Shown one piece after another: positions 1 through 19,352 of a stretch of DNA of 20,485 nucleotides. Source of the stretch: a virus; UHGV virus genome UHGV-0139389; one strand, written 5' to 3'. Made by a program: the position numbers and the translations under genes. The first letter of the stretch is position 1; every line of letters starts with the position of its first letter. Under the pieces are notes generated by a model that searched no databases, was not told the origin of the DNA, and saw nothing but the letters and a program-made list of their open reading frames with translations.

Positions 1-28
1 GTAAAGTCCTTAAACTAGGAGATTCAAA
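1..28 (+). repeat. Intergenic cassette copy, 3' part only (GTAAAGTCCTTAAACTAGGAGATTCAAA) truncated by window start
   Basis: Identical to 3' end of cassettes at 899-965, 1801-1862, 2399-2460; supplies AGGAG RBS for ATG at 29. Confidence 0.7.
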
Positions 29-571
29 ATGAAATGCTTTCACGGTACTACTCAAGAAAACTTTATCAACCTGATTAATAACGGTGATAAACCATCAGGT
101 GTATGGAATTGTTCGGATATGGACGGCAATTTTTACGTGTACCCAGAAAATAAACTCTATGGTGATGATGAGGAAGAGATAGCATCGGAAGGTATCCAGC
201 AAGCTCTAGGAAATGCCACTATCACGGCAGCTTTTCAGATGAAAACTCAAAATATTGTTATCTTAGAACTTGACATTCCAGAGGATGAGCTAAATGATGA
301 TTATTCTTGTGATAACATGTCAAATATAGCAAGCTTTACAGAGTACTTTGATGTAAATTGGATTAAAAAGGTCTATACAACAGAGTTCAACGCTATGTAT
401 TCACCTTTTTGTCTCCCTTCACTGGATAACCCAAATTTAAATTATCTTGATGAAACATTGGAGCTACTTGCTAAAAGTATCCAACAATCCGACAGTATTC
501 AGGTTTTTTGTGACATCATGGATACACTGACAGAAAACATTGTAGAGAGTGATTTAAAGGTCTTTTTCTAA
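29..571 (+). CDS. hypothetical protein, 180 aa, acidic
   Basis: ATG at 29 with AGGAG 6-10 nt upstream inside cassette; ORF-track ORF; no recognisable motif. Confidence 0.6.
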   Translation: MKCFHGTTQENFINLINNGDKPSGVWNCSDMDGNFYVYPENKLYGDDEEEIASEGIQQALGNATITAAFQMKTQNIVILELDIPEDELNDDYSCDNMSNIASFTEYFDVNWIKKVYTTEFNAMYSPFCLPSLDNPNLNYLDETLELLAKSIQQSDSIQVFCDIMDTLTENIVESDLKVFF

Positions 572-637
572 AAACCTATACATTCACCTTATAAACACTG
601 ATTAACCCCTTACAGGGGCTTTTAGAGGGCTTAAATC

Positions 638-871
638 ATGCTTACAACCATTTATCTCATCCTTTCCATTTGTAACGGCCATTCATGTGACTTTAAAGGG
701 CTTGAAGAGTTTACAGGAAGTAAAGAAAATGCTATTCAAGTTTGCCAGATAGCAAGACAAGACTACCCCGCCAGTGATGATATACAATGTTACTTTAAGA
801 CAGAAGATGACGAAGGAATCTATTTCGACAGTGTCGATGGTCAATATGAAATTATCATTGAAAAAGACTAG
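638..871 (+). CDS. hypothetical protein, 77 aa
   Basis: ATG at 638, AGAGGG 9 nt upstream; small hairpin CCCCT-TAC-AGGGG at 606-618 upstream. Confidence 0.5.
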   Translation: MLTTIYLILSICNGHSCDFKGLEEFTGSKENAIQVCQIARQDYPASDDIQCYFKTEDDEGIYFDSVDGQYEIIIEKD

Positions 872-898
872 ACAAGCCTGATAAAAGTCTGTAAATTA

Positions 899-965
899 TC
901 AATCAACGGGGAGGGAATGACCTTCCCCACTAAGTAAAGTCCTTAAACTAGGAGATTCCAAAAAA
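899..965 (+). repeat. Intergenic cassette: hairpin GGGGAGGG-AATGA-CCTTCCCC (908-928) + AGGAG + ATG
   Basis: Near-identical copies at 1801-1862, 2399-2460, 2731-2792; G-U containing 8-bp stem; upstream part AAAGTCTGTAAATT shared with copy at 2383. Confidence 0.85.
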
Positions 966-1214
966 ATGTATACTAAAACTCAACTAAAAAACATGGTTAG
1001 CAATGGCTTAATGGATGAAGTCTATAAAGAGTGTAGACGCTACGGGGAAATTAAGGATAAGACTAGTTATGAGTATACCCACACAATAGACTTTAAAACC
1101 AATGAGAAGAGGACTGACCTTGTTACTGTAGTAGTGATTGAGTATAAACGAATTATTTGGACCTTTGAGCTAGTAAAAGGTGAGTGCACAGAGATAGAAT
1201 ATAAAGACGCTTAA
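966..1214 (+). CDS. hypothetical protein, 82 aa
   Basis: ATG directly after cassette RBS. Confidence 0.55.
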   Translation: MYTKTQLKNMVSNGLMDEVYKECRRYGEIKDKTSYEYTHTIDFKTNEKRTDLVTVVVIEYKRIIWTFELVKGECTEIEYKDA

Positions 1215-1299
1215 AGTACTTTACATGGGGCTTATTAGTCTGTATAGTAAGCCCCAGATAAAGAGCTTTACCACTCAATCCTAAACTGGAGATTCTAAA

Positions 1300-1641
1300 A
1301 TGGCTTATGTAACCGTAATTACCGATAAAGCTGGCTCATCTTGGTCAACTCAAGTAAGTGATAAGATGTCACCTATGCAGTGCCTAAAATACTTTGAACA
1401 GTGGAACAAAGGCGAGGGTGTAAGCCCCTTTCAAGTGATGCAAATCATCCATACAGATAACGAAGGGAATAAAACGACCTTGAACAGTGAATACTACGCA
1501 AGCCGTTTTGAAACGAGAAGTAAAACAATGAAGCTTTTACGTGAATCCGGTTATGCACATATTGCCGCTTTAATCTGGGATGACCTGCTAAAAAGTCAGC
1601 GTATCAGCTATGTAAAGCCTGAAAAAATCTTCATAAGTTAA
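1300..1641 (+). CDS. hypothetical protein, 113 aa
   Basis: ATG at 1300 preceded by partial cassette CCTAAACTGGAGATTCTAAA (1279-1299) and hairpin GGGGCTTA...TAAGCCCC at 1226-1254. Confidence 0.55.
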   Translation: MAYVTVITDKAGSSWSTQVSDKMSPMQCLKYFEQWNKGEGVSPFQVMQIIHTDNEGNKTTLNSEYYASRFETRSKTMKLLRESGYAHIAALIWDDLLKSQRISYVKPEKIFIS

Positions 1642-1769
1642 TCAATAACTTACAAAAAACTTTTAAAAAAGTGTTGACAATACCCATTGACATTGGTAAC
1701 TTTGTTCGAGGGGGTTATCTAAAAGGGATTCACTTAATAGATTCTTTATAGATAAACTTAAAAAATTGC

Positions 1770-1798
1770 TTGCAAAGGCAAATCAAAACAAGTATAGT
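1770..1798 (+). promoter_or_regulatory. sigma70-like promoter TTGCAA-17 nt-TATAGT
   Basis: Counted spacing 17 nt; lies immediately upstream of cassette 1801-1862 so the hairpin would form the transcript 5' end. Confidence 0.4.
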
Positions 1799-1800
1799 AC

Positions 1801-1862
1801 TAATCAACGGGGAGGGAATGACCTTCCCCACTAAGTAAAGTCCTTAAACTAGGAGATTCAAA
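1801..1862 (+). repeat. Intergenic cassette copy (hairpin 1809-1829 + AGGAG + ATG)
   Basis: Sequence identity to other copies. Confidence 0.85.
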
Positions 1863-2393
1863 ATGAACAAGTTTCAAGCTATCAACTACATTCGCTCATC
1901 TAACGTTATGACTAAACCCGTTAAAGATACCTTCGAATTTCGTTGCAACGGTGTACACTTTGCAACTATCACTAAATCAGAAAACGGGGCTTATTATATA
2001 CATCGTCGTAATGTTTCTACTGTTGTAGTATCTCACTTTATGCAAGCTGTAGCAGAACTATTACCGCTATTATTAGGTATTTACTTAGATGAGTGTAAAA
2101 ACGTTCGCAACCACGTTAAAGACCTTTTAAATGGTTATAAAATGGCTTATGAACGTTCTATCAAGAATCTTAACAAGTTCTATAAAGCCCCTGAAAACAC
2201 CGTATCAATAGCTTATGATGTAAGCGGTGAAATGGTCAACCTCTCCAATGTAGAACAAATTGGCCTTTATGATTTACGTCCTAGCGGTTATTCTAAGACT
2301 CTCGGTGAAGGCTTATCCTTCAATATCAAGAACTTAGAAAAAACTTTAAAAGATATTGAAAAAGATATTGACGAGACAATCAAAAGTCTGTAA
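1863..2393 (+). CDS. hypothetical protein, 176 aa
   Basis: ATG after cassette RBS; stop TAA lies inside conserved cassette 5' part AGTCTGTAAATT. Confidence 0.6.
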   Translation: MNKFQAINYIRSSNVMTKPVKDTFEFRCNGVHFATITKSENGAYYIHRRNVSTVVVSHFMQAVAELLPLLLGIYLDECKNVRNHVKDLLNGYKMAYERSIKNLNKFYKAPENTVSIAYDVSGEMVNLSNVEQIGLYDLRPSGYSKTLGEGLSFNIKNLEKTLKDIEKDIDETIKSL

Positions 2394-2398
2394 ATTGT

Positions 2399-2460
2399 CA
2401 ATCAACGGGGAGGGATTAACCTTCCCACTAAGTAAAGTCCTTAAACTAGGAGATTCAAAA
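2399..2460 (+). repeat. Intergenic cassette copy (hairpin GGGGAGGG-ATTAA-CCTTCCC)
   Basis: Sequence identity to other copies; loop variant. Confidence 0.85.
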
Positions 2461-2724
2461 ATGGAACACGTAGAATTAACCACACTATTGCAGATTGCAA
2501 CTGACAAAGAAGACGTAGCGTTGTTTCACCGTATCGAAAGTGATTTGTTCAATGGTGAAATCATTAAAGAATCTTACGAAGTTGTCGGATTCAAAGATGG
2601 TAAAGCATTTGGCTTTTTTGACCTCGACAAAAGCAAAGCGGTTACAATGTACGATGTTCTATCTTGTGAAATTCTGACAAAATACAACGAAAAAAGGCTT
2701 GCAACCTACGCCAATATGCAGTAA
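2461..2724 (+). CDS. hypothetical protein, 87 aa (start trimmed from ORF-track 2356)
   Basis: ATG at 2461 sits at the canonical cassette position after AGGAG; the 2356 start would read through the cassette and overlap the upstream gene. Confidence 0.5.
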   Translation: MEHVELTTLLQIATDKEDVALFHRIESDLFNGEIIKESYEVVGFKDGKAFGFFDLDKSKAVTMYDVLSCEILTKYNEKRLATYANMQ

Positions 2725-2730
2725 ATTACT

Positions 2731-2792
2731 AAACAACGGGGAGGGAATGACCTTCCCCACTAAATAAAGTCCTAAACTGGAGATTCTAAATT
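2731..2792 (+). repeat. Intergenic cassette copy (hairpin 2738-2758, RBS variant CTGGAG)
   Basis: Sequence identity to other copies. Confidence 0.8.
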
Positions 2793-3041
2793 ATGTCAAC
2801 TATCCGCGTAACTGTTAATGCTTATGGCTGCCACCAACTTGATGCAAAATTCGATATCGGTGGAACAGATAACACCTTTGACCTTATCAAAATGCTGATT
2901 CAGCAGGTGATACCAGATTATAACCCTACTGATGACTTCTGGAAAGATGCCGTAAAAGAAGCCATAAACGAGGAATCTCACTACCATTATTGGGGTGACT
3001 TGATTGTCTCTCTGTACTACAGCAAACAAGGTTGCAACTAA
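2793..3041 (+). CDS. hypothetical protein, 82 aa
   Basis: ATG after cassette; last ORF of plus-strand array. Confidence 0.55.
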   Translation: MSTIRVTVNAYGCHQLDAKFDIGGTDNTFDLIKMLIQQVIPDYNPTDDFWKDAVKEAINEESHYHYWGDLIVSLYYSKQGCN

Positions 3042-3051
3042 TCGACGCAGC

Positions 3052-3104
3052 GGGGCTAAATAGCCCCAGATACCTGAAAAGCTCCTTCTCATAGGGGCTT
3101 TTTT
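3052..3104 (+). terminator. Putative terminator region: hairpin GGGGCT-AAAT-AGCCCC then GGGGC + T6
   Basis: GC stems followed by TTTTTT at 3099-3104, 11 nt after stop of 2793-3041. Confidence 0.4.
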
Positions 3105-3105
3105 A

Positions 3106-4620
3106 CGTCTATAAAGAGACTCTATACAATCCCTTTCCTTTCCTTCCCAGAATCTATCCCGTACCTTAAAAGCAATAACTCTATAGCTTACTCTATAGCC
3201 CCTTATCAAATCAACTTAAATATAAGCCCATAACCCGAAAGGGAAGGGCAACCATTTAAACGCTCTATAAAGCCCTATAACAGCCTTATCAACCTAACTT
3301 AAGCAATCATATTAACCCACTCTAAAAAGCCCTTTATAGAGCTTCCCAGAGCCTTAAAAGAATCTTATAAGGGTGTAAGCTTTATTATCTCGTTAGCTAT
3401 CTTGTGAACTACTAAAAAGGGCTTGATAGTCACTAAAAAGCATGTTATAGGGGCTATAAAGTTACTTTGAAGTAGCTTAAAAGTTACGTAAATGCTAGCC
3501 CCCTTAACATTTTCTTAACAATTTCTTAACAATCCCTACATAGTTATGCTTTTAAGGCACTTATTAGAGACTTGTTAGCCCCTTGTTAAATCTCTGTTAA
3601 GACCACGTAAAAGCCTTGTAAGAGTCTTTAGCATAGCCTTTAAAGCCTCTGTAAAGCCCTATAAAGAGGTGTCTGTATAGTTGGGGTGTAATTACTAGGA
3701 AGAGACTTAAAAGAGCTTACAAGGAGCTATAGAGAGCTTTTAAGAGGGCTATTTAGAGAATCACTAAGAGGGAAAGGGAACGATAAGAAAAGAGATAGTG
3801 ACCATGTTAATAGCTTGTTAAAAAGATTAAACACTTGTTAGGAACTTGTTAATTATCCCTACAAAATAACTCTTTAAAATTAACTTGTTAGCTCTTGTTA
3901 GTCATCTGTTAAGATTCTGTAAAGTCTATGTATCAACTGTTAAGAAACTGTTACATCCTTGTTAGTTCTGTTAAGAATCTGTTAAGACCTTTGGAGAGAT
4001 GTTAAGAGCTTGTGAGAACTGTTAAGAGATTGTTAAGGATATTTTAAAATTTTGCAAAGTACTTGTAAGGGAGTTGTTAAGGGCTACCAAGCAGATATAC
4101 ATCTTCTACAGATATTTTTGAGTTCCTTCAAAGACCCTAAAAAAATGACTTGATAGTCTTATTTTATAAAAATTTTAAAAATCTGAATAATTACCTAGAC
4201 AGTCTTTTAAAAATACAGGTAGAAACAGGCTTATAAGATACCTTGTTAGTACCGTGTTAGACCTTGTGAGATAAGGTCTGTGAAGATATTCCTGTTAAGT
4301 TTGTTAAAACAGTCTATATAGAGGCTTAGTAGTGCCTAGTGAACACCTATAGAGAGTCACATAGCTAACCTAGAGATTAAGAGGTGTATAGAGGCTTCTA
4401 AGAGCGTATAGAGAGATGGTTAAGGTGATTGTATAGGTTGTTAAGAAGGCTTGTTAGAAGAGTGTTTAGAGGGCTTATTAAAGGGCTAGTTAGAAGGCTT
4501 ATACAGGGGGGGGGGCTATTAAGACCACTAGATAGTTACTAAGATACTATATAGTACTATATAACTATATAGAGAGTAAGATTAAGAAGGTTGTTAAGAG
4601 GGATAGATATTTTGTTCACA
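3106..4620. repeat. ORF-free AT-rich region with dense degenerate short repeats ((C)TTGTTA(A/G)G, CTATAAAG, TATAGAG families)
   Basis: No ORF >=60 aa on the gene-bearing strands; CTGTTAAG / CTTGTTAG motif recurs repeatedly (e.g. 3575, 3592, 3885-3900, 3945-4025, 4245-4300, 4435-4455, 4590). Confidence 0.75.
4506..4515 (+). other. G10 homopolymer tract
   Basis: GGGGGGGGGG in otherwise AT-rich non-coding DNA. Confidence 0.9.
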
Positions 4621-4670
4621 TATGATGGTGACCCAGAGGTTGGGACAACCGATAAAATTTTATAAAAATT

Positions 4671-4693
4671 AAAAAGCCCCCAATTAAGGAGGC
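4671..4693 (-). terminator. Rho-independent terminator of minus-strand block
   Basis: Minus strand GCCTCC-TTAATT-GGGGGC followed by TTTTT, 13 nt downstream of stop at 4706. Confidence 0.5.
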
Positions 4694-4705
4694 TCTTAAG
4701 ATATT

Positions 4706-5254
4706 TTAAATCAGCGTTTCCAGAACTGTTTTCAATGATGACTTGGTTGTCTGATAAAAATGAGTAAATCCATTGTTATTATCGAATACCTGCATCATGA
4801 TATCATCTCCCTTGATTGGGTACACTCGGATATCATAGTGAAAACCATTAAAGACACAAGAACCACTACAGAATGCTCTAAAGTCATCCACTGAGATATA
4901 CTCTTCATGACCTGTGATTTTTATACAAACACCTTTACTCGGTCTCTTAGGGTTGATATCTTCCATCACAGACATACCCTGTCCACCAAGAGATACCATA
5001 GTGACCACTTTACGGTTCTTCTGTCTAAAGTACATCTTAACTTTCTGCAAAGTGTCTTCATAGAACGGATAAGACCTTTCTACAAAGATTCCTTCAAGTG
5101 GCTCTTTACCATTTTCAACTTCTCGGTTATGCCGTACTGCAAAGATAATTTGTTGGAACCAGTCAAAATTTTCTTCAGATAGTGCTTCCCGAACATCAGA
5201 CCAATCAAGGACTAGGTAGTTACCTTCAACTTCTTTTAAGTTATCTTTTTCCAT
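4706..5254 (-). CDS. hypothetical protein (182 aa from ATG; ORF-track TTG start at 5299 possible)
   Basis: ORF-track ORF begins with TTG and overlaps upstream gene by 32 nt; first ATG at 5254; start uncertain. Confidence 0.5.
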   Translation of the reverse strand: MEKDNLKEVEGNYLVLDWSDVREALSEENFDWFQQIIFAVRHNREVENGKEPLEGIFVERSYPFYEDTLQKVKMYFRQKNRKVVTMVSLGGQGMSVMEDINPKRPSKGVCIKITGHEEYISVDDFRAFCSGSCVFNGFHYDIRVYPIKGDDIMMQVFDNNNGFTHFYQTTKSSLKTVLETLI

Positions 5255-9886: not shown

Positions 9887-10351
9887 TTACTTTGGGTATA
9901 CACTGTCAAGATAAATGTCAGCTTCCATTCTACGTCTGTTTTTCAGACCGTTTGAAGTGACCTTCTTACCTTTGACTGTAACCTTGTTCCACCACTGCAT
10001 AGCTTCTGCACAACCTACCTTATTACCAGCATTGTGGCGCTTGATAAATGTGGAATCCTGCATAGCTGTGATACCGATGTTGTATGTTTCACTTACAAGT
10101 GCATCGAACTCATTCTGAGTAGTTGGAACCTTGATAGCTTTGTTCACTGCTGCAACAAACTTCTCAACATCCGCGAGAAGATACTGTTCAGCTTGTTCAG
10201 CAGTAATTTTCATACCCATCTTAACAGGTTTTCCGTCAATACGGATTGTCCCATACCCGATTGTTGGGATTCCGGCAGAATCTTCGTAAGCCTCTAACTC
10301 CAGACCTTCGAAGAACTTAATAGCATCTAAACCTTTTCTTGAGAGTTGCAT
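9887..10351 (-). CDS. endolysin, glycoside hydrolase family 24 (T4 lysozyme-like)
   Basis: Motif FEGLELEAYEDSAGIPTIGYG (catalytic Glu, TIGYG) as recalled for T4/P22-type lysozymes; 154 aa. Confidence 0.85.
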   Translation of the reverse strand: MQLSRKGLDAIKFFEGLELEAYEDSAGIPTIGYGTIRIDGKPVKMGMKITAEQAEQYLLADVEKFVAAVNKAIKVPTTQNEFDALVSETYNIGITAMQDSTFIKRHNAGNKVGCAEAMQWWNKVTVKGKKVTSNGLKNRRRMEADIYLDSVYPK

Positions 10352-11484
10352 TACGCCTCCCCTGCTGGGTTAACTGTAACTGTTGCTGCATTGGATGTTA
10401 CAGAGCCACCTGCACCAGTAACTACACAGGTGTAGCTTCCTGCATCAGCAGCGGTCGCACCTTCTTTGGTGTAAGTTGCAGTAGTTGCATCAAGGATGTC
10501 TTCCTCACCTTTCTTCCACTGGTAACCTGTCGCACCTGTTGCCACAACATTCAGCGTTAAGGTCTCACCTTCATTGATTTCTTGATTGGTTGGCTGTTGA
10601 GTGATTACCGGAAGTGCGTTAACAGTAACCGTTGCAGGGCTAGAAGTGACAGAACCACCTGCACCTGTTACAACACAAGTGTATGAACCTGCATCTGCTG
10701 GCAGAGCACCAGACTTACTATAGGTTGCATCTGTAGCCGAAGGAATGTCAGAGCCATCTTTCTTCCACTGATAACCTGTTGCACCTGTTGCAGTCACTTC
10801 CAAGTTGATGTTTCCACCCTCATTGACGGTCTGGCTAGAAGGTTGTTGTGTAATCACAGGCAGTGCGTTGACAGTAACTGTTGCCGCATCTGAGGTAACG
10901 CTTGTCCCAGCCTCTCCAGATACAACACAAGTGTATGAACCGGCATCAGAAGGTTCTACAGACTGTTTTGTGTAGGTTGCAGATGTGGCGCTAGTGATAT
11001 CCTCACCATCCTTTTTCCATTGATATCCAGTGGCATTAGTTGCAATAACGCTTAGGGTAAGTGTACCACCTTCATTTACTGTTTGATTGGTTGGCTGTTG
11101 AGTGATTGATGGTGGCTTGATGGCGTCCTTCAACTTAGCATTCAACATTGAGAATGGTTTAACTCTTGCCAGCCATTCGCAATAAACTGTATCAACGTCT
11201 TTACCATTGATAATTGTATATTGTAAGTCCATGAAGAAGTCAGAAGTTCTCATTTGAGCACCAACACTGTAAAGCAACTCATCACTAAATGGAACTTTGT
11301 AGTCTGGTTTATAGTCAAACTTCTCAACTTCTGCAATATCAGCTTCAGGCCAATACGAGCTATAGGTAAGTGGTAAAATAGCCTCTTGATATGTTCTAAA
11401 ATCATATCTCTTACCAGCCTTTACGTTTGCAATGAAGCCCTTCACAAACTCTTTGAAGTCTGGGTAAGTCTTTGCTTTAATCAT
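10351..11484 (-). CDS. virion surface/decoration-like protein: N-terminal domain + three tandem Ig-like domains
   Basis: Three ~83-aa repeats each with GYQWKK...DAGSYTCVV (Ig-like I-set signature); N-terminal 120 aa paralogous to product of 11481-11852; function inferred. Confidence 0.7.
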   Translation of the reverse strand: MIKAKTYPDFKEFVKGFIANVKAGKRYDFRTYQEAILPLTYSSYWPEADIAEVEKFDYKPDYKVPFSDELLYSVGAQMRTSDFFMDLQYTIINGKDVDTVYCEWLARVKPFSMLNAKLKDAIKPPSITQQPTNQTVNEGGTLTLSVIATNATGYQWKKDGEDITSATSATYTKQSVEPSDAGSYTCVVSGEAGTSVTSDAATVTVNALPVITQQPSSQTVNEGGNINLEVTATGATGYQWKKDGSDIPSATDATYSKSGALPADAGSYTCVVTGAGGSVTSSPATVTVNALPVITQQPTNQEINEGETLTLNVVATGATGYQWKKGEEDILDATTATYTKEGATAADAGSYTCVVTGAGGSVTSNAATVTVNPAGEA

Positions 11485-15143: not shown

Positions 15144-15220
15144 CTCTGTTTAGCTCAGCTTGGTAGAGCGTTCCGTTTGGGGCGGTAAGGCCGGAGGTTC
15201 AAGTCCTCCAACAGAGACCA
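15144..15220 (+). tRNA. tRNA-Pro (anticodon TGG)
   Basis: Acceptor CTCTGTT/AACAGAG (C1-G72), T-arm GGAGG-TTCAAGT-CCTCC, loop TTTGGGG, CCA encoded. Confidence 0.8.
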
Positions 15221-15227
15221 AATTAAT

Positions 15228-15305
15228 GTTCCAGTAGACAAAATGGTAAAGTCACCACTCTTTCAAAGTGGATATCTGAGGGTTCAAATCCCTTCTGGAA
15301 CGCCA
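15228..15305 (+). tRNA. tRNA-Glu (anticodon TTC)
   Basis: Acceptor GTTCCAG/CTGGAAC, anticodon stem CCACT/AGTGG, T-loop TTCAAAT, CCA. Confidence 0.8.
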
Positions 15306-15312
15306 GTTTTGA

Positions 15313-15385
15313 CAGAAGACCAATTACAGCAAACTTAATCTACTCATCTGAAAGTTAATCGGACAAAGAAGATATTTGGTCTGGT
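15313..15385 (+). ncRNA. Stem-closed spacer RNA element U1 (conserved 5' CAGAAGACC..TACAGCAA, 3' GGTCTGG)
   Basis: 5' AGACCAA pairs 3' TTGGTCT; member of 4-copy family with compensatory changes. Confidence 0.4.
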
Positions 15386-15395
15386 CATTAAGAAT

Positions 15396-15472
15396 TGCGG
15401 GTATAGAGAAAGGGCGTCTCACATGTCTCATTAGCATGGTATCGGCAGGTTCGACTCCTGCACCCGCCTCCA
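15396..15472 (+). tRNA. tRNA with anticodon CAT (Met or Ile-lysidine)
   Basis: T-arm GCAGG-TTCGACT-CCTGC, acceptor 6 bp with 1-72 mismatch, loop CTCATTA, CCA. Confidence 0.7.
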
Positions 15473-15478
15473 AATTTA

Positions 15479-15545
15479 CAGAAGACCGTTTACAGCAATA
15501 TTTATTAAATTTTTAGCGGAAAAATTGAAAGATACGGTCTGGTAA
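15479..15545 (+). ncRNA. Stem-closed spacer RNA element U2
   Basis: 5' AGACCGT pairs 3' ACGGTCT; conserved TACAGCAA after stem. Confidence 0.4.
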
Positions 15546-15555
15546 TACTAAACAT

Positions 15556-15632
15556 GGTTAGGAAGCACATAAGGTATGTGCGGTCGCCTGTTAAGCGAAT
15601 GGCACAGGGTTCGAATCCCTGACTAACCGCCA
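15556..15632 (+). tRNA. tRNA-Asn (anticodon GTT)
   Basis: T-arm CAGGG-TTCGAAT-CCCTG, acceptor GGTTAGG/ACTAACC (one mismatch), loop CTGTTAA, CCA. Confidence 0.75.
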
Positions 15633-15701
15633 AATTTAGGAGAGAAGCGATTGCTCACCGATTTGTAAGGTGCAAGTCCTTAGCCTGAATAGAAATCAAA
15701 T

Positions 15702-15789
15702 GTGTCGTTATCCCGTAGATGGTAGCGGTGGGGACTGTAAATCCCTTGTCATTGAGACTCGGTAGGTTCGACTCCTACACGGCACACCA
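15702..15789 (+). tRNA. tRNA-Tyr (anticodon GTA), long variable arm
   Basis: Acceptor GTGTCGT/ACGGCAC, loop CTGTAAA, T-arm GTAGG-TTCGACT-CCTAC, 85 nt + CCA. Confidence 0.8.
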
Positions 15790-15795
15790 AATAAA

Positions 15796-15873
15796 GGTTA
15801 TGTAGTTTAATCTGGTTAAAATACTCCCCTGTCACGGGAGATGATGAGGGTTCAAATCCCTTCATAACCGCCA
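15796..15873 (+). tRNA. tRNA-Asp (anticodon GTC)
   Basis: Acceptor GGTTATG/CATAACC, stem CTCCC/GGGAG, loop CTGTCAC, CCA. Confidence 0.85.
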
Positions 15874-15934
15874 ATTTTGAGAGGGCTATTTAGCCCCTCC
15901 CTTAAAGAGTTCTTACGAGTATTCTTTAAAGGAG

Positions 15935-16010
15935 CAGAAGACCAAATACAGCAAGAATGTATGAAATTTCAAGCCAATTCAATTTTGAAAATTTAAAACT
16001 TGGTCTGGCT
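15935..16010 (+). ncRNA. Stem-closed spacer RNA element U3
   Basis: 5' AGACCAA pairs 3' TTGGTCT; conserved 5' CAGAAGACCAAATACAGCAA. Confidence 0.4.
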
Positions 16011-16022
16011 CAACAAATTTAC

Positions 16023-16153
16023 AGAAGACCGTTTACAGCAAAACTTAAACAATCTATTTCTCCGGTAAAGAAAAGGCGAGGGTTCGATTCCTTCACTCGG
16101 CAGATGTCGAGTTGGTGTAATGGTAGCACTTAAGATGATAAACAACGGTCTGG
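16023..16153 (+). ncRNA. Candidate Y-RNA-like (YrlA-like) RNA: terminal stem enclosing tRNA-like module without anticodon arm
   Basis: 8-bp stem AGACCGTT(16026-16033)/AACGGTCT(16144-16151); inside: T-arm GAGGG-TTCGATT-CCTTC (16078-16094), capped acceptor-like hairpin ACTCGGC-AGAT-GTCGAGT (16095-16112), D-arm-like GTG-TAATGGTAG-CAC. Confidence 0.45.
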
Positions 16154-16160
16154 TAATTAC

Positions 16161-16292
16161 CTTTGTAGATAAGTTATTAAGCTTACTTGTGAGTATGCGA
16201 CCACAAAGGGTGAATGGGTAAATTCTAGATTTAAACCCAAAAAGGCACATCGCTACAGACCTTAAGCAAGTCTGGGTAGCTTATCTACAAAG
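16161..16292 (+). ncRNA. Structured element closed by perfect 13-bp long-range stem
   Basis: CTTTGTAGATAAG (16161-16173) is exact reverse complement of CTTATCTACAAAG (16280-16292); internal hairpin CAGAC-CTTAAGCAA-GTCTG. Confidence 0.4.
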
Positions 16293-16302
16293 ATAATTTA
16301 AT

Positions 16303-16378
16303 GGAAGTGTAGCAGAATGGTGATGCGGCAGACTTTTAATCTGACAGGCGATGGGTTCGAATCCCTCCACTTCTACCA
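16303..16378 (+). tRNA. tRNA-Lys (anticodon TTT)
   Basis: Acceptor GGAAGTG/CACTTCT (G1-U72), loop CTTTTAA, T-loop TTCGAAT with weak T-stem, CCA. Confidence 0.7.
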
Positions 16379-16382
16379 ATAT

Positions 16383-16459
16383 GGTTCAGTCGCAGATAAG
16401 GTAATGCAAGGGTCTCATAAGCCCTATGAATGTGGGTTCGATTCCCATCTGAACCTCCA
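16383..16459 (+). tRNA. tRNA with anticodon CAT (Met or Ile-lysidine), second copy
   Basis: Acceptor GGTTCAG/CTGAACC, stem AGGGT/GCCCT, loop CTCATAA, T-loop TTCGATT, CCA. Confidence 0.8.
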
Positions 16460-16460
16460 A

Positions 16461-16536
16461 GCTGGTATAGTTAAGAAGGTTATAACACTCCCCTGATAAG
16501 GGAACATCGGTGGTTCGATTCCACCTACCAGTACCA
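16461..16536 (+). tRNA. tRNA-Ile (anticodon GAT)
   Basis: Acceptor GCTGGTA/TACCAGT (G1-U72), T-arm GGTGG-TTCGATT-CCACC, loop CTGATAA, CCA. Confidence 0.8.
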
Positions 16537-16551
16537 ATTTCAATAAAGTTG

Positions 16552-16580
16552 TTGACATTGAGATGTGACTACTTTATAGT
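16552..16580 (+). promoter_or_regulatory. Internal sigma70-like promoter TTGACA-17 nt-TATAGT
   Basis: Counted spacing 17 nt; best consensus match in window; precedes ~200-nt unassigned spacer and tRNA-Arg. Confidence 0.5.
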
Positions 16581-16782
16581 AACCTTAGTTTTCGTTGCGT
16601 AGCGTCTATTTTGCAAATTTAAAATAAATGCAAACGACAATGTTTTTCTGGCAGTAGCTTGATAGGCTAAACACCAGTGAGGTCTTCCAATCCCTCATCA
16701 AAGAATTTGGCGTACTCGCCCACGGTATGATTAATAAGGTGGGCATCTTTAAGGGCTTTCTAAGAGAGTCTTTAAAGATAAT

Positions 16783-16859
16783 GCACCCTTAGTTCAATTG
16801 GATAGAGCAACGGTCTTCTAAATCGTTAGTTACAGGTTCGAATCCTGTAGGGTGTACCA
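16783..16859 (+). tRNA. tRNA-Arg (anticodon TCT)
   Basis: Acceptor GCACCCT/AGGGTGT (G1-U72), D-arm GTTC-AATTGGATA-GAGC, loop CTTCTAA, T-arm ACAGG-TTCGAAT-CCTGT, CCA. Confidence 0.85.
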
Positions 16860-17001
16860 AATAGTTAGCAGATTGCTTAGACGACCTTATCGGGTCTCCG
16901 TGTAAGGAGGTGGTCTGTATCTCATGTTTTCCAGAACATGTAAATAATCTGAGAAGGGGCTTTACAGTGTTGAGATAATACGGTAAGCTTCGAATTATAG
17001 T

Positions 17002-17084
17002 ATGGGACGATGTTAAGACTCTAAGGCATGAGCAACGGCTTCCAACACCGTTTCAAAGGGGTTCAACTCCTCCGTCCCATGCCA
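17002..17084 (+). tRNA. tRNA-like, probable anticodon CCA (Trp), non-canonical D region (80 nt)
   Basis: Exact 7-bp acceptor ATGGGAC/GTCCCAT, T-loop TTCAACT, loop TTCCAAC, CCA encoded; ~7 extra nt between acceptor and anticodon stem. Confidence 0.45.
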
Positions 17085-17097
17085 AAGTCTTATTAGG

Positions 17098-17185
17098 GGT
17101 AGGTAGCGGCTAATGGTAGCCAAACTGTCTTGAAAACAGTTGCCACTGTAGAGATACGGTGAGGGTTCGACTCCTTTACTTACCG
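17098..17185 (+). tRNA. tRNA-Ser (anticodon TGA), long variable arm
   Basis: Acceptor GGTAGGT/ACTTACC, stem ACTGT/ACAGT, loop CTTGAAA, 20-nt variable arm, T-loop TTCGACT; no encoded CCA. Confidence 0.75.
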
Positions 17186-17342
17186 CCTAATAAGATTTAA
17201 AGCCAAGCTTCATTCGGATGTTGCTTTGGTATACCGCGTGTATTGTTGTACACACTGATAAAACACCTAGTAGGTGTCACGGAGAAGAGATAATATCAAG
17301 CTCTCCAAAGGTTCTAGTCACCGGATTAAACAAGACTATGCA

Positions 17343-17363
17343 AAGACCTTTTTAGGTCTTTTT
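17343..17363 (+). terminator. Weak hairpin + short T-tract
   Basis: AAGACC-TTTTTA-GGTCTT then TTT. Confidence 0.3.
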
Positions 17364-17442
17364 AGAGGGCTTCTAAGGTTATTACAGCTTGTTGTGGAAC
17401 CTTGTTGCTTAGGTTCTTAGAAGTTCTCTAAAAAGATTTAAT

Positions 17443-17519
17443 GCACCTATAGCCCAACTGGTAGAGGCAGCAGACTTAGAATCTGCTCAGTGTGAGTTCG
17501 AATCTCTCTAGGTGTACCA
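17443..17519 (+). tRNA. tRNA with anticodon TAG (Leu by anticodon) but short variable loop
   Basis: Acceptor GCACCTA/TAGGTGT (G1-U72), stem GCAGA/TCTGC exact, loop CTTAGAA, 5-nt variable loop, A73, CCA. Confidence 0.7.
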
Positions 17520-17526
17520 AATTAAT

Positions 17527-17602
17527 GCAGGTGTAGCAAAATGGTTATGCGGCTGACTCTTAATCAGTAAGACGATGGGTTCAATTCCCTCCACCTGTAC
17601 CA
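17527..17602 (+). tRNA. tRNA-Lys (anticodon CTT)
   Basis: Acceptor GCAGGTG/CACCTGT (G1-U72), loop CTCTTAA, T-loop TTCAATT, CCA; paralogue of tRNA at 16303. Confidence 0.75.
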
Positions 17603-17608
17603 AACAAT

Positions 17609-17684
17609 GGGGTCATAGTTTATATGGTTAAAATTCGAGTTTTGCAAACTTGGGAACTGAGTTCAATTCTCAGTGACTCCACCA
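17609..17684 (+). tRNA. tRNA-Ala (anticodon TGC)
   Basis: Acceptor GGGGTCA/TGACTCC with G3-U70 wobble (Ala identity element), loop TTTGCAA, T-arm CTGAG-TTCAATT-CTCAG, CCA. Confidence 0.85.
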
Positions 17685-17690
17685 ATTAGT

Positions 17691-17765
17691 GCATCCATAG
17701 TTTAAACGGGAAAATTACAGTCTTCCAAACTGAGGTTGAGGGTTCGATTCCCTCTGGATGCTCCA
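17691..17765 (+). tRNA. tRNA-Gly (anticodon TCC)
   Basis: Acceptor GCATCCA/TGGATGC, loop CTTCCAA, T-arm GAGGG-TTCGATT-CCCTC, CCA. Confidence 0.85.
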
Positions 17766-17772
17766 AATTAAT

Positions 17773-17848
17773 GCTCCTATCGTATAATTGGTTATTACGG
17801 TTGCCTTGTAAGCAACTTATCAGGGTTCGAGTCCTTGTGGGAGCACCA
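17773..17848 (+). tRNA. tRNA-Thr (anticodon TGT)
   Basis: Acceptor GCTCCTA/TGGGAGC, stem GTTGC/GCAAC, loop CTTGTAA, T-loop TTCGAGT, CCA. Confidence 0.85.
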
Positions 17849-17944
17849 ATTCAGAGGTCAAGTGAAAGACCGCTTTGAGTCAACTGAAGACCGTAACAAA
17901 TTCCACGAAGTTGAGTTAGCGGCACAACTTCAGACCTCTTTCAT

Positions 17945-18019
17945 ACTCGCTTAGTTTATATGGTAAAACATCACCCTTACAAGATGAAGAAAAAGGTTCA
18001 AGTCCTTTAGTGAGTACCA
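17945..18019 (+). tRNA. tRNA-Val (anticodon TAC)
   Basis: Acceptor ACTCGCT/AGTGAGT, D-arm GTTT-ATATGGTA-AAAC, loop CTTACAA, T-arm AAAGG-TTCAAGT-CCTTT, CCA. Confidence 0.8.
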
Positions 18020-18020
18020 T

Positions 18021-18098
18021 GTTCCAGTATCCCAATTGGCAGAGGATGCAAGCTCAAACCTTGTATTAGTGACGGTTCGAATCCGTCTTGGAACACCA
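18021..18098 (+). tRNA. tRNA with anticodon CAA (Leu by anticodon) but short variable loop
   Basis: Acceptor GTTCCAG/TTGGAAC, loop CTCAAAC, T-arm GACGG-TTCGAAT-CCGTC, A73, CCA. Confidence 0.7.
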
Positions 18099-18103
18099 AT
18101 TTT

Positions 18104-18179
18104 GCAGGATTAGTTCAAATGGAAAGAGCAACAGTCTACGAAGCTGTTAATAGGGGTTCGAATCCCTTATCCTGCGCCA
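18104..18179 (+). tRNA. tRNA-Arg (anticodon ACG)
   Basis: Acceptor GCAGGAT/ATCCTGC, D-arm GTTC-AAATGGAAA-GAGC, loop CTACGAA, T-arm AGGGG-TTCGAAT-CCCTT, CCA. Confidence 0.85.
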
Positions 18180-18196
18180 GATAAAAAGGTGATACT

Positions 18197-18439
18197 ATGC
18201 AAACATTAACAGTAGTTGAACATGAAAACTGTGAGAGTATTGAGTTTGTCAGGGTCATTGGTGTTGAACACCACATTTTCTTAAAAGTGGGATACTTATG
18301 TGACCCCGCTAGAGTAGAAAGATTTATACGTGATTGTTTTGGTGGTAGACAGCTGAAGAGTGTTATTTTTGAGACAGTTTTACCAGAAGGTTTAGAAACG
18401 AATAATAACATTTACCTCCTTACGAGGATTAGACAATGA
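18197..18439 (+). CDS. hypothetical protein, 80 aa, embedded in tRNA array
   Basis: ATG at 18197 with AAGGTG RBS; ATGA overlap with next ORF. Confidence 0.55.
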   Translation: MQTLTVVEHENCESIEFVRVIGVEHHIFLKVGYLCDPARVERFIRDCFGGRQLKSVIFETVLPEGLETNNNIYLLTRIRQ

Positions 18440-18993
18440 GATACTTAAAGTATGCTTCATGGATTTTCTTAGCTTTGTTAGAGCCATTTGCAGCAATCTT
18501 AGCAGTTATCTTAGCACCTTTTGTAGTTCCATTCTACAGTGAGAAGAAAGGACACTTACCTTTCGGGTTCAGATGGATGGAGACTTATGACAACCCAATT
18601 GATGGTGATGCAGGTCATATCAAACGATGGGCTAAGATTAGAAAGATTGGTAAGCTTGGTGTCTACATGCAGAGAGTTGGATGGCTCTGGAGAAACAAAG
18701 CTTATAACTTCTCTTACCATGTATTAGGAAGAGATGTAAAAGATGTTACTAAGTGGAAAGGTAATATCAACGTAAGTTCTAACCCTGAAGATAATCAGAC
18801 TGGTTATCTCCTAATGTGGAACAGTAATGCTTGGGGATTATTCGCTTTTGTGCCGTCAATCAAAATCTTTGGTAAACAATTTTACTGGAGAATTTATGTT
18901 GGGTGGAAACTTAAAAGTGTTGTCCCAGAAGAAAGAGCATTTTCAAGGGAAAGAGTTATGTTGGCATTCTTTATTCATCCACTAAGAAAGTAA
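18436..18993 (+). CDS. hypothetical membrane protein, 185 aa (N-terminal TM helix)
   Basis: ATG at 18436, GAGGA RBS; hydrophobic N-terminus WIFLALLEPFAAILAVILAPFVVPF. Confidence 0.6.
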   Translation: MRYLKYASWIFLALLEPFAAILAVILAPFVVPFYSEKKGHLPFGFRWMETYDNPIDGDAGHIKRWAKIRKIGKLGVYMQRVGWLWRNKAYNFSYHVLGRDVKDVTKWKGNINVSSNPEDNQTGYLLMWNSNAWGLFAFVPSIKIFGKQFYWRIYVGWKLKSVVPEERAFSRERVMLAFFIHPLRK

Positions 18994-19001
18994 AGATTTA
19001 A

Positions 19002-19077: not shown

Positions 19078-19079
19078 AT

Positions 19080-19158: not shown

Positions 19159-19163
19159 AATTT

Positions 19164-19239: not shown

Positions 19240-19270
19240 CTTCTAAGGATTCTTACGAGAGTCCTTAAAT

Positions 19271-19346: not shown

Positions 19347-19352
19347 ATTTAT

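What the first reader, a model, noticed from the sequence alone, without database searches (positions are those of the whole stretch)
1..2792. Modular stop-hairpin-RBS-start cassette repeated before every small ORF
At least five copies of a ~60-nt element (899-965, 1801-1862, 2399-2460, 2731-2792, partial 1-28 and 1279-1299) place a GGGGAGGG/CCTTCCCC hairpin, then AGGAG, then ATG in front of successive small ORFs. In three copies (2383, 2722, 886) the conserved 5' part also contains the stop codon of the upstream gene, so the cassette supplies stop, structure, RBS and start in one block. This resembles the promoter-stem-loop cassettes described in hyperplastic regions of T4-type phages, which are thought to drive modular gene shuffling; here a sigma70-like promoter is seen only before copy 1801.
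Basis: partly seen in the sequence, partly recalled or inferred. Interest (0 to 1): 0.6.

Follow-up and report, generated by a model that had tools for sequence, protein, structure and literature searches.

The report
Repeated promoter–hairpin–RBS gene cassettes
In this Felix O1-like phage (wV8 group), 12 of the 14 small early genes of unknown function in one array carry a near-identical block of host-type promoter, RNA hairpin and ribosome-binding site. Related phages have gained, lost and swapped genes exactly at these blocks, as described for the "PeSL" cassettes of T4-like phages.

Summary
The repeats are real. The window holds four GGGGAGGG/CCTTCCCC hairpins and six copies of the RBS module, where chance predicts none.

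The window is a wV8-type Felixounavirus (99.8% identical to E. coli O157 typing phage 12). Positions 1-3041 are the distal half of a 5.5-kb, 14-gene early array that holds every copy in the 88-kb genome.

Every cassette carries a sigma70-like promoter at a fixed register, not only the copy at 1801. There are two promoter/hairpin modules:
- **T1:** TTGACA-like, N17, TAAATT, N7, then the hairpin.
- **T2:** TTTACA, N17, TAnnnT, with a GGGGCTTA/TAAGCCCC hairpin overlapping the spacer and the -10.

These combine freely with two RBS alleles. The hairpins show compensatory changes and strand-specific G·U pairs.

Across 15 related genomes the array is collinear but differs by whole "gene + cassette" units. 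Gene J (966-1214) sits in three different slots. In two Mooglevirus genomes an unrelated ORF replaces it between identical flanks.

This is the PeSL architecture and behaviour, seen here outside the T4-like phages. GenBank already annotates the pieces as direct repeats, promoters or "terminators". I found no paper that makes the PeSL connection.

Verdict: a new member of a known kind, of moderate interest. Promoter and hairpin function are inferred, not shown.

The parts
1..28 (+). 3' end (RBS module, allele a: CCTTAAACTAGGAGATTC, SD AGGAG) of a T2 cassette cut by the window edge. It drives ORF H (29-571).
   Evidence: The upstream part (TTTACA N17 TAAAGT with the GGGGCTTA/TAAGCCCC hairpin) can be read in L003 12935-13026.
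869..965 (+). T1 cassette driving ORF J (966-1214). It holds -35 TAGACA 869-874 (the TAG is the stop of ORF I), -10 TAAATT 892-897, predicted start near 904-905, hairpin 908-915/921-928, SD AGGAG 950-954 and ATG 966.
   Evidence: In other phages the same cassette precedes gene K.
1212..1299 (+). T2 cassette driving ORF K (1300-1641). It holds the stop of J (TAA 1212-1214), -35 TTTACA 1220-1225, -10 TATAGT 1243-1248, core hairpin 1226-1256, outer stems 1212-1223/1259-1270, predicted start near 1255-1256, and RBS allele b with SD GGAG 1288-1291.
   Evidence: 10 of 12 match; -31.1 kcal/mol, z -4.55; 31 variants, TAnnnT kept, compensatory pairs.
1770..1862 (+). T1 cassette driving ORF L (1863-2393). 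It holds -35 TTGCAA 1770-1775, -10 TATAGT 1793-1798, hairpin 1809-1816/1822-1829 and SD AGGAG 1851-1855.
2368..2460 (+). T1 cassette driving ORF M (2461-2724). It holds -35 TTGACG 2368-2373, which lies inside the coding end of L. The -10 TAAATT 2391-2396 begins with the TAA stop of L. It also holds hairpin 2407-2413/2420-2426 and SD AGGAG 2448-2452.
   Evidence: In VpaE1, UAB_Phi87 and Felix O1 this same cassette directly precedes gene N.
2699..2792 (+). T1 cassette driving ORF N (2793-3041). It holds -35 TTGCAA 2699-2704, which lies inside the coding end of M. The -10 TAAATT 2722-2727 begins with the TAA stop of M. It also holds hairpin 2738-2745/2751-2758 and RBS allele b with SD GGAG 2779-2782.
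29..3041 (+). The seven small ORFs that the cassettes serve: H 29-571, I 638-871, J 966-1214, K 1300-1641, L 1863-2393, M 2461-2724 and N 2793-3041. I has no cassette and always travels with H. All seven are of unknown function.
   Evidence: Each falls in its own PHROG family of unknown function, none has a Pfam match, and there is no paralogy between them.
3052..3109 (+). End of the array: two hairpins (3052-3067 and 3076-3103). The second is followed by a T-run and looks like a canonical terminator, unlike the cassette hairpins.
   Evidence: -28.5 kcal/mol, z -4.47. The ASO1A record annotates a terminator at the homologous place.

Best explanation
Each repeat is a self-contained early-gene expression cassette of the PeSL kind. 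It has three parts.

1. **A promoter for host sigma70 RNA polymerase.** The -35 and an A/T-rich stretch often lie in the 3' end of the preceding ORF. The -10 can overlap that ORF's stop codon.
2. **A G/C-clamped stem-loop.**
3. **A strongly conserved RBS module,** ending in GGAG and an ATG.

In T1 cassettes the hairpin begins about 3 nt after the predicted start site. It would therefore cap the 5' end of the gene's own mRNA, which points to protection from 5'-end-dependent decay. In T2 cassettes the hairpin overlaps the spacer and the -10 and lies upstream of the predicted start. It can then exist only in read-through RNA from the preceding gene, where it could act as an attenuator, a 3'-end protector or a processing site.

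Because 60-100 bp of near-identical sequence recurs every 300-600 bp in one orientation, the cassettes act as substrates for homologous recombination. That recombination deletes, inserts and exchanges 'ORF + cassette' units and homogenises the cassettes themselves.

Shown here: the repeats, the fixed promoter register, hairpin conservation with covariation, confinement to the early array, and cassette-bounded gene gain, loss and replacement.

Inferred, not shown: promoter activity, the start sites, what the hairpins do in RNA, and the recombination mechanism.
For: **Identity and distribution**
- The window is 99.5-99.8% identical to wV8 and O157 typing phages 1 and 12.
- In the complete wV8 genome, all 12 RBS modules, all T1 hairpins and all 5 T2 tails lie at 8.1-13.6 kb on the + strand and nowhere else.

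**Promoter**
- All 12 cassettes of the array have a -35/N17/-10 pair at a fixed distance from the hairpin.
- The background chance of such a pair at a given position is 0.0018, and of a -35 with at least 4 of 6 matches is 0.053.
- The -35 hexamers (TTGACA, TTGACT, TTGACG, TTGCAA, TAGACA) lie in unrelated flanking sequence, some of it coding.
- In 31 T2 variants the loop varies freely. TTTACA and the first two bases (TA) of the -10 are invariant. The last T is kept in 30 of 31, giving 13 different TAnnnT hexamers. The spacer is 17 nt in 28 variants and 18 nt in 3.
- The sequence upstream of the -35 is 76% A+T, against 62% locally.
- The GenBank records of ASO1A and AYO145A independently annotate promoters at these positions.

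**Hairpin**
- About 40 T1 variants keep a stem at the same position with different sequences: GGGGAGGG/CCTTCCCC, GGGAGG/CCTCCC, GGGGC/GCCCC, GGGC/GCCC and GGGA/TCCC.
- T2 pairs 7-9 switch between TA and AT, and among AT, CG and TA.
- The G·U and U·G pairs would be mismatches on the other strand, which favours + strand RNA.

**Early expression**
- Felix O1 ORFs 16, 20, 21 and 22 (families u14, F, K and L) peak at 5 min by RT-PCR (PMC3185647).

**Shuffling**
- Gene-order maps of 15 genomes differ by whole units: J, M, u14, u27/u54, u48/u60, G-H-I, A and B.
- The J and M indels run from ATG to ATG, with breakpoints inside the shared cassette.
- J homologues occupy three slots: I-J-K in wV8 and IME338, F-J-H in Sf18, and the first slot in Hafnia phage Zyzzx.
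- In Sf18 and 3HA14 the same slot holds unrelated 82-aa ORFs between near-identical flanks.
- The same gene carries different hairpin and RBS module combinations in different phages.

**Match to the PeSL definition**
- The definition lists a stop codon, an A/T-rich stretch, -35/-10, a stem-loop in variable position, SD and ATG, located in ORFan-rich plastic regions.
- Known PeSL stem-loops include G_N-loop-C_N, and known PeSL promoters include TTTACW-N17-TAYWAT.
Against: - **No experimental data.** I found no transcription start, terminator or half-life data for any Felix O1-like phage.
- **Weak individual promoters.** The hexamer matches are only 8-10 of 12. The generic scan finds about as many such sites in shuffled sequence (18 against 14.2). 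The argument therefore rests on register and conservation, not on match quality. TAAATT is a weak -10.
- **Mixed timing.** Some array genes of Felix O1 (ORFs 17, 19, 23) peaked at 25 min rather than 5 min.
- **Hairpins lack a U-tract.** The 'terminator' half of the PeSL concept is therefore not supported by sequence here.
- **Hairpin is dispensable.** A few cassettes have a promoter and RBS but no hairpin, for example Sf18 J and Mijalis L.
- **Mostly indels.** Gene order is largely collinear, so most variation could come from simple deletions and insertions. Only J and u58 are seen in different slots.
Confidence: 0.75

Rival explanations
1. The array is one long polycistronic early mRNA made from the promoter in front of gene A. 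The intergenic hairpins are then RNA processing or stabilising elements (RNase III or RNase E sites, or 3'-end protectors, as in the T7 early region), and the promoter-like hexamers are incidental.
For: - A strong promoter with an A/T-rich upstream element precedes the first gene, and canonical terminators bracket the array.
- The T2 hairpin with its outer stems makes about 23 bp with two internal loops, at -31 kcal/mol.
- G·U pairs indicate an RNA-level structure.
- T2 hairpins can exist only in read-through RNA, so some read-through is implied.
Against: - The -35 and -10 hexamers keep their register in every cassette across many unrelated flanks.
- The unpaired TA of the T2 loop is invariant while the rest of the loop varies.
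- The T1 stems are 4-8 bp, far too short for RNase III.
- The two ideas are not exclusive: processing of read-through RNA could coexist with internal promoters.
Confidence: 0.12
2. The hairpins are rho-independent terminators, as several GenBank records annotate them. Each gene would then be terminated individually.
For: - wV8, XTG1, ASO1A and AYO145A annotate some of these hairpins as terminators, on either strand.
- One PeSL stem-loop in phage RB49/phi1 terminated efficiently in a reporter.
Against: - No T-run follows the stem. T1 is followed by ACTAAGTAAAG and T2 by AGATAAAGAG.
- The terminator scan finds none at any cassette.
- Real terminators with T-runs exist at both ends of the array, so the contrast is visible.
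- The T1 hairpin lies downstream of its own promoter, so an efficient terminator there would block the gene it precedes.
Confidence: 0.06
3. The repeats are leftovers of tandem gene duplication: paralogous genes copied together with their upstream regions, with no special role.
For: The 5' part of the cassette before J/K (TAGACAAGCCTGATAAAAGTCTGTAAATT) resembles the coding 3' end of gene L plus its cassette (TTGACGAGACAATCAAAAGTCTGTAAATT). This shows that cassettes have been copied together with neighbouring sequence.
Against: - The 14 proteins of the array show no similarity to each other, with no BLASTP hit below E=1.
- They fall in separate PHROG families.
- The cassettes are far more similar to each other than anything in the genes they flank.
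- Module alleles reassort between orthologous positions.
Confidence: 0.03
4. The inverted repeats are DNA operators for a phage repressor that shuts off early promoters. This applies especially to T2, where the palindrome overlaps the spacer and the -10.
For: The T2 palindrome sits exactly over the promoter core, which is the classic operator position.
Against: - The half-site sequence varies (CTTA, TTAT, CTAA, TTTA) while complementarity is kept.
- Many variants pair through T·G, which is a mismatch in duplex-symmetry terms but a valid RNA pair.
- The T1 stems are G-rich on one arm and C-rich on the other, with lengths of 4-8 bp.
Confidence: 0.04

Closest known systems
PeSL (promoter-early stem-loop) cassettes of T4-type phages (Arbiol et al. 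2010, PMC2839356; Comeau et al. 2014, PMC4122927)
   Same: - **Layout.** The order of parts is the same: stop codon of the upstream gene, an A/T-rich stretch, sigma70-like -35/N17/-10, a stem-loop whose position relative to the promoter defines subclasses, then SD and ATG.
- **Stem type.** RB49/phi1 PeSLs have G-run/C-run stems, as T1 does.
- **Promoter variant.** The TTTACW-N17-TAYWAT promoter of T4/PST resembles T2.
- **Location.** Both cluster in an ORFan-rich plastic region.
- **Behaviour.** Between close relatives, indels and gene replacements are bounded by the motifs.
   Different: - **Host lineage.** These are Ounavirinae (Felix O1-like, 88 kb), not T4-like phages, and there is no sequence homology to published PeSLs.
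- **Density.** Here the cassettes form one dense, strictly unidirectional array: 12 cassettes in 5.5 kb and none elsewhere in the genome.
- **RBS module.** It is as strongly conserved as the promoter and comes in two alleles that reassort with two hairpin modules.
- **T1 hairpin position.** It lies downstream of the predicted start site.
- **Untested here.** Promoter activity, terminator activity and mini-circles.
Direct repeats DR_1-3 and DR_5-9 annotated in the wV8 GenBank record, and the 57-bp and 39-bp repeats listed in the Felix O1 genome paper (PMC3185647)
   Same: They are the same sequences. DR_2/3/5/6 are the T1 hairpin plus RBS, DR_7/9 are the T2 tail plus RBS, DR_8 is the TTGACA...TAAATT promoter part, and DR_1 is the T2 cassette with the end of the upstream gene.
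   Different: They were recorded only as repeats, with no function or evolutionary role proposed. The Felix O1 paper lists other promoters and states that downstream secondary promoters are unknown.
T7 early-region RNase III processing sites
   Same: Structured elements lie between successive small early genes transcribed in one direction by host polymerase.
   Different: T7 has three promoters at the left end and long irregular hairpins that are cut. Here each gene has its own promoter-like site, and most stems are 4-8 bp.
5'-terminal stabilising stem-loops such as the ompA 5' UTR (established knowledge: Emory, Bouvet and Belasco 1992)
   Same: The T1 hairpin would begin about 3 nt from the predicted 5' end, the geometry known to protect E. 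coli mRNAs from 5'-end-dependent decay.
   Different: The start site is only predicted, and no half-life data exist.

Membership tests
PeSL cassettes | Sigma70-like -35 and -10 hexamers with a spacer of about 17 nt | tested here: met
   All 12 cassettes of the array and their orthologues in 14 other genomes meet this. The chance of such a pair at a fixed register is 0.0018 per site. This is sequence-level evidence only.
PeSL cassettes | A stable stem-loop within or next to the promoter, its position defining subclasses | tested here: met
   The T1 stem starts about 10 nt after the -10. The T2 stem spans the spacer and the -10. Compensatory changes are present.
PeSL cassettes | An A/T-rich stretch upstream of the -35 that holds the stop codon of the upstream gene | tested here: inconclusive
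   The 25 nt upstream of the -35 average 76% A+T, against 62% locally. In T2 the stop lies just upstream of the -35. In T1 it can be upstream, inside the -35 (869-871), or inside the -10 (2391, 2722).
PeSL cassettes | Shine-Dalgarno sequence and start codon of the downstream gene at the 3' end | tested here: met
   GGAG or AGGAG lies 7-11 nt before the ATG in all six window copies.
PeSL cassettes | Concentrated in plastic regions, upstream of ORFans | tested here: met
   All copies lie at 8.1-13.6 kb of the 88-kb wV8 genome. The seven window ORFs have no Pfam match and fall in PHROG families of unknown function.
PeSL cassettes | Insertions, deletions and replacements between close relatives are bounded by the motifs | tested here: met
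   The J and M indels run from ATG to ATG. J and u54 replace each other between identical flanks. Unit-wise maps cover 15 genomes.
PeSL cassettes | Demonstrated promoter and terminator activity, and mini-circle formation | not testable with these tools
   This needs reporter fusions, 5'/3'-end mapping and outward-facing PCR.
PeSL cassettes | Occurs in T4-type myoviruses (the lineage in which the family was defined) | tested here: not met
   The lineage is Ounavirinae, genus Felixounavirus. So this works like a PeSL but is an independent, non-homologous instance.
Rho-independent terminator | A G+C-rich hairpin immediately followed by a T/U run | tested here: not met
   The hairpins are present, but the tails are ACTAAGTAAAG (T1) and AGATAAAGAG (T2). 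The scan found no terminator-like site at any cassette.
RNase III processing site (T7 early type) | About 20 bp or more of largely double-stranded RNA | tested here: inconclusive
   T1 does not meet this (4-8 bp). T2 with its outer stems gives about 23 bp interrupted by two internal loops. Cleavage itself is not testable here.
Any Rfam RNA family | Match to a curated covariance model | tested here: not met
   There are no relevant matches in window 1-4800 at E<=1.

The most novel reading that the evidence does not exclude
The cassettes may be more than passive homology. The array could behave like an integron-style gene-cassette platform for the whole subfamily Ounavirinae. ORF + cassette units would be excised as circles and re-inserted at any other cassette, which would explain J in three slots and unrelated ORFs in one slot.

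The invariant RBS module may add a second layer. It holds GGAG preceded by a complementary UCC(U), and its two alleles differ by a matched one-base deletion on each side of that small stem. It could be a common target for global post-transcriptional shut-off of early genes, for example by a RegB-like GGAG-specific nuclease or a translational repressor.
Probability: 0.15. Interest if true: 0.6.

Novelty: new member of a known kind. Interest (0 to 1): 0.38.

Why it matters
- **Convergence.** PeSL-type cassettes have been described only in T4-like phages. A clear, non-homologous example in the Felix O1-like phages suggests that 'promoter + hairpin + RBS' repeats are a convergent, general way for virulent phages to keep a fast-evolving set of early accessory genes that are each independently expressed.
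- **Felix O1 transcription.** The finding gives a concrete answer to a question left open in the Felix O1 genome paper, namely where the secondary promoters of this region are.
- **Annotation.** It corrects database annotations that call these hairpins terminators.
- **Phage engineering.** Felix O1-like phages are used for Salmonella and E. coli typing and biocontrol. The cassette slots mark natural, tolerated insertion sites with ready-made expression signals.

Tried and rejected
- **Rfam search** of window 1-4800 at a permissive threshold returned only two sub-threshold chance hits, neither at a cassette.
- **Generic promoter scan.** The total count is not above shuffles (18 against 14.2). 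I did not use promoter counts as evidence, only register and conservation.
- **Terminator scan.** None found at any cassette, so I rejected the GenBank 'terminator' reading.
- **Paralogy among array proteins.** None found, so I rejected the tandem-duplication origin.
- **Concerted-evolution measure.** I compared the last 22 nt before the ATG within and between genomes. One-base indels between the RBS alleles and spurious members made it uninformative, so I dropped it. The case for homogenisation rests on qualitative allele reassortment.
- **MAFFT alignment of T2 hairpins** put a gap inside the 3' arm. I counted pairs with my own script, anchored on the GGGG/CCCC clamp. Three GGGGG variants are off by one there, which slightly understates pairing.
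- **First T1 extraction regex** truncated the hairpins. I redid it.
- **Literature searches** for PeSL or regulatory cassettes together with Felix O1 or Felixounavirus, and for transcriptome data on these phages, found nothing relevant. The wV8 paper does not mention the repeats.
- **Not used.** I did not run the large protein-database, structure-prediction or metagenome scans, because the question was about DNA elements and the phage collection answered it.


Full report
**What the window is.** Positions 1-3100 are 99.5-99.8% identical to Escherichia phage wV8 and E. coli O157 typing phages 1 and 12. These are Felix O1-like myoviruses of about 88 kb, genus Felixounavirus, subfamily Ounavirinae. 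The rest of the window fits that identification. It holds minus-strand genes including a lysozyme and an Ig-domain protein, and a cluster of 26 tRNA genes.

The finding covers the distal half of an array of 14 small plus-strand genes. I fetched the homologous 29 kb of typing phage 12 (L003) to read the other half. I letter the genes A to N. The window holds H (29-571), I (638-871), J (966-1214), K (1300-1641), L (1863-2393), M (2461-2724) and N (2793-3041).

Four details in the finding need correction:
- The copies at 1-28 and 1279-1299 belong to a second cassette type whose hairpin is GGGGCTTA...TAAGCCCC.
- Two copies have GGAG rather than AGGAG.
- ORF I stops at TAG 869-871, not at 886.
- A promoter is not confined to copy 1801.

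**Anatomy.** Lining up the 115 nt before each of the 14 genes shows that 12 have a cassette built from interchangeable parts.

- **T1 (seven copies).** A TTGACA-like hexamer, 17 nt, TAAATT or TATAGT, seven nt ending in ATC, then AAC and a G-run/C-run hairpin.
- **T2 (five copies).** TTTACA, 17 nt, TAnnnT, with a GGGGCTTA/TAAGCCCC hairpin. Its 5' arm lies in the spacer and its 3' arm begins at the last base of the -10. Outer stems extend it to about 23 bp at -31 kcal/mol.
- **RBS module.** Both types end in the same module, which has two alleles: a (CCTTAAACTAGGAGATTC) and b (CCTAAAYTGGAGATTC). All four combinations of hairpin module and RBS allele occur.

The promoter scan independently lists 869-897, 1220-1248, 1770-1798 and 2368-2396. 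The fifth site, 2699-2727, scores 8 of 12 and falls just under the scan's threshold. For M and N, the -35 lies inside the coding end of the preceding gene, and the TAA stop of that gene forms the first three bases of the -10.

**Is the promoter more than chance?** The raw number of promoter-like sites in the region is not above shuffles (18 against 14.2), so match quality alone proves nothing. Register and conservation carry the argument.

- A qualifying pair at a given position has a background frequency of 0.0018, yet 12 of 12 cassettes have one at the same distance from the hairpin.
- The -35 hexamers sit in at least seven unrelated sequence contexts.
- In 31 distinct T2 variants from 14 genomes the loop sequence varies freely. 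TTTACA and the first two bases (TA) of the -10 are invariant. The last T is kept in 30 of 31, giving 13 different TAnnnT hexamers. The spacer is 17 nt in 28 variants and 18 nt in 3.
- The 25 nt upstream of the -35 average 76% A+T, against 62% locally.
- The annotators of phages ASO1A and AYO145A marked promoters at several of these positions.

**Is the hairpin more than a repeat?** About 40 distinct T1 variants keep a stem at the same position with different sequences and lengths. Examples are GGGGAGGG/CCTTCCCC, GGGAGG/CCTCCC, GGGGC/GCCCC, GGGC/GCCC and GGGA/TCCC, so the fourth pair is G-C, C-G or A-U. In T2, pairs 7 to 9 switch between T-A and A-T, and among A-T, C-G and T-A.

Both types use G·U pairs, which would be A·C mismatches on the other strand. 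This points to a structure in plus-strand RNA rather than a DNA palindrome for a protein. Neither hairpin is followed by a T-run, and the terminator scan finds nothing at them. Canonical terminators with T-runs do sit just before and just after the array. No Rfam family matches.

**Distribution.** In the complete wV8 genome, every RBS module (12), every T1 hairpin and every T2 tail (5) lies between 8.1 and 13.6 kb on the plus strand. None occurs in the other 83 kb. BLAST of one cassette finds 249 phage records, all apparently Felix O1-like phages of Escherichia, Salmonella, Shigella and Citrobacter, with 1,264 matching places.

A more distant relative, Hafnia phage Zyzzx, has the same design with different sequences. 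It uses TTGCA(G/A)-N17-nATAAT, GGGG...CCCC hairpins either after or across the promoter, and its own conserved RBS module CTAAYCAAGAGGATTTWAAAAATG.

I predicted ORFs in 15 related arrays, clustered the proteins and wrote gene-order maps.

| Phage | Gene order |
|---|---|
| wV8 / typing phage 12 | A B C D E F G H I J K L M N |
| VpaE1 | A B C D E F G H I K L N |
| AYO145A | A B u14 C D E F G H I K L M N |
| Felix O1 | u24 u14 C D E F K L N |
| 3HA14 | u24 u56 A B u14 C D E F u27 H I u97 u98 K u52 L M N |

The order is collinear, but whole 'ORF + cassette' units come and go. C-D and H-I, which lack an internal cassette, always travel as pairs.

- **Indel boundaries.** Junction alignments show that the J and M indels run exactly from one ATG to the next, with both ends inside the shared module.
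- **J in wV8.** Where J is present, the T1 cassette that elsewhere drives K drives J instead, and K receives a T2 cassette.
- **J distribution.** J is found in only 23 phage records.
- **J in three slots.** It lies between I and K in wV8 and IME338, between F and H in Sf18, and first in the array in Zyzzx.
- **Replacement in one slot.** In Sf18 and 3HA14, two phages of the same Mooglevirus species, the F-H slot holds J in one and an unrelated 82-aa ORF in the other (no BLASTP alignment at E<=100). The flanks are near-identical on the left through the promoter and on the right from the T2 cassette.
- **Allele reassortment.** Orthologous genes carry RBS allele a in one phage and b in a close relative, and K and A switch between T1 and T2. 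This is what repeated recombination among cassettes would produce.
- **No paralogy.** The array proteins are not paralogues. Each falls in a separate PHROG family of unknown function with no Pfam match.

**How it most likely works.** Host RNA polymerase would start at each cassette. For T1 the predicted start is 7-8 nt after the -10, about 3 nt before the stem. Each mRNA would then begin with a hairpin, the geometry known from ompA to protect E. coli messages from 5'-end-dependent decay (established knowledge, not tested here).

For T2 the predicted start is just past the 3' arm. The hairpin would then exist only in transcripts reading through from the gene before, where it could attenuate, protect the 3' end or be processed. 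The conserved RBS module gives every gene the same translation start region.

The direct, closely spaced, 60-100-bp repeats provide homology for recombination. That recombination can delete, insert or exchange units without breaking expression signals. Every step from 'would start' onward is inference. The only experimental support is that Felix O1 ORFs 16, 20, 21 and 22 (u14, F, K, L) peak 5 min after infection, while ORFs 17, 19 and 23 peak at 25 min.

**Comparison with what is known.** The PeSL elements of T4-type phages are defined as follows:
- the stop codon of the upstream gene in an A/T-rich stretch;
- a sigma70-like -35 and -10;
- a stem-loop whose position relative to the promoter defines five subclasses;
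- then SD and ATG.

They are concentrated before ORFans in hyperplastic regions and bound the indels between close relatives. Published variants include G_N-loop-C_N stems and a TTTACW-N17-TAYWAT promoter.

All sequence-level features are met here. Activity and mini-circles cannot be tested with these tools. The lineage criterion is not met, because these are Ounavirinae with no sequence homology to published PeSLs. So the element works like a PeSL and is an independent instance of the kind.

The sequences themselves are not new to the databases. The wV8 record annotates them as DR_1-3 and DR_5-9. The Felix O1 paper lists the 57-bp and 39-bp repeats without comment and says secondary promoters in this region are unknown. 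Other records call the hairpins terminators. I found no paper linking them to PeSLs or to gene shuffling, within the limits of the searchable library.

**Verdict.** The feature is real and non-random. It is best explained as PeSL-like early expression cassettes that double as recombination sites (confidence 0.75). It is a new member of a known kind, of moderate interest.

Noticed in passing
window 3042-4700: A 1.65-kb ORF-free region lies between the plus-strand early array and the minus-strand genes. It holds 18 of the window's 26 YTGTTARR motifs, many at 11-bp spacing (3905-4037). It also has TATAGAGRGC-type repeats and a G9 run at 4506-4514. It looks like an iteron array, so possibly an origin or a regulator-binding region.
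   Followed up: partly
window 939-958 and the other five RBS modules: The two RBS alleles differ by one base lost on each side of a small stem. UCCU-UAAACU-AGGA becomes UCC-UAAACU-GGA, and this stem pairs with the Shine-Dalgarno sequence. No intermediate form was seen in about 110 cassettes. This may be a weak SD-masking hairpin, or just two linked alleles.
   Followed up: partly
window 869-897 versus 2368-2396: The promoter part of the cassette before J (TAGACAAGCCTGATAAAAGTCTGTAAATT) is 22 of 29 identical to the coding 3' end of gene L plus its -10 (TTGACGAGACAATCAAAAGTCTGTAAATT). A cassette was apparently once copied together with the end of L.
   Followed up: partly
window 1642-1862 (K-L intergenic, 221 nt): This unusually long spacer has a further TTGACA (1674-1679), N17, TAACTT site after an A/T-rich stretch. 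ASO1A annotates a promoter plus hairpin here, and Mooglevirus phages carry a 46-aa putative membrane ORF here. The Sf14 genome record also starts in this spacer.
   Followed up: no
window 596-637: Gene I has no cassette. It is preceded by a small CCCCTTACAGGGG hairpin followed by CTTTT and its own GAGGG Shine-Dalgarno sequence. H and I always occur together in all genomes examined.
   Followed up: partly
wV8 record EU877232 59418-59475 and 60811-60868 (outside the window): DR_4 is an exact 58-bp direct repeat flanking minus-strand genes 94-95, one of which resembles a Listonella phage protein. This is probably another repeat-bounded insertion.
   Followed up: no
window 15144-20354: A cluster of 26 tRNA genes is interspersed with small ORFs. 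wV8 annotates 23 and Felix O1 22, so ARAGORN calls a few that the records mark as pseudo-tRNAs or omit.
   Followed up: no
window 10351-11484, minus strand: There are three tandem ~250-nt repeats (10465-11107) inside the ORF annotated as an immunoglobulin I-set domain protein, which suggests repeated Ig-like domains.
   Followed up: no
L003 9826-10230 (upstream of the window): The 450-nt leader between the macro-domain gene's terminator and the first promoter of the array has several copies of a TTTTCATTTTnnnAnnGTGCAGGTA-like repeat. A C-rich tract follows.
   Followed up: no
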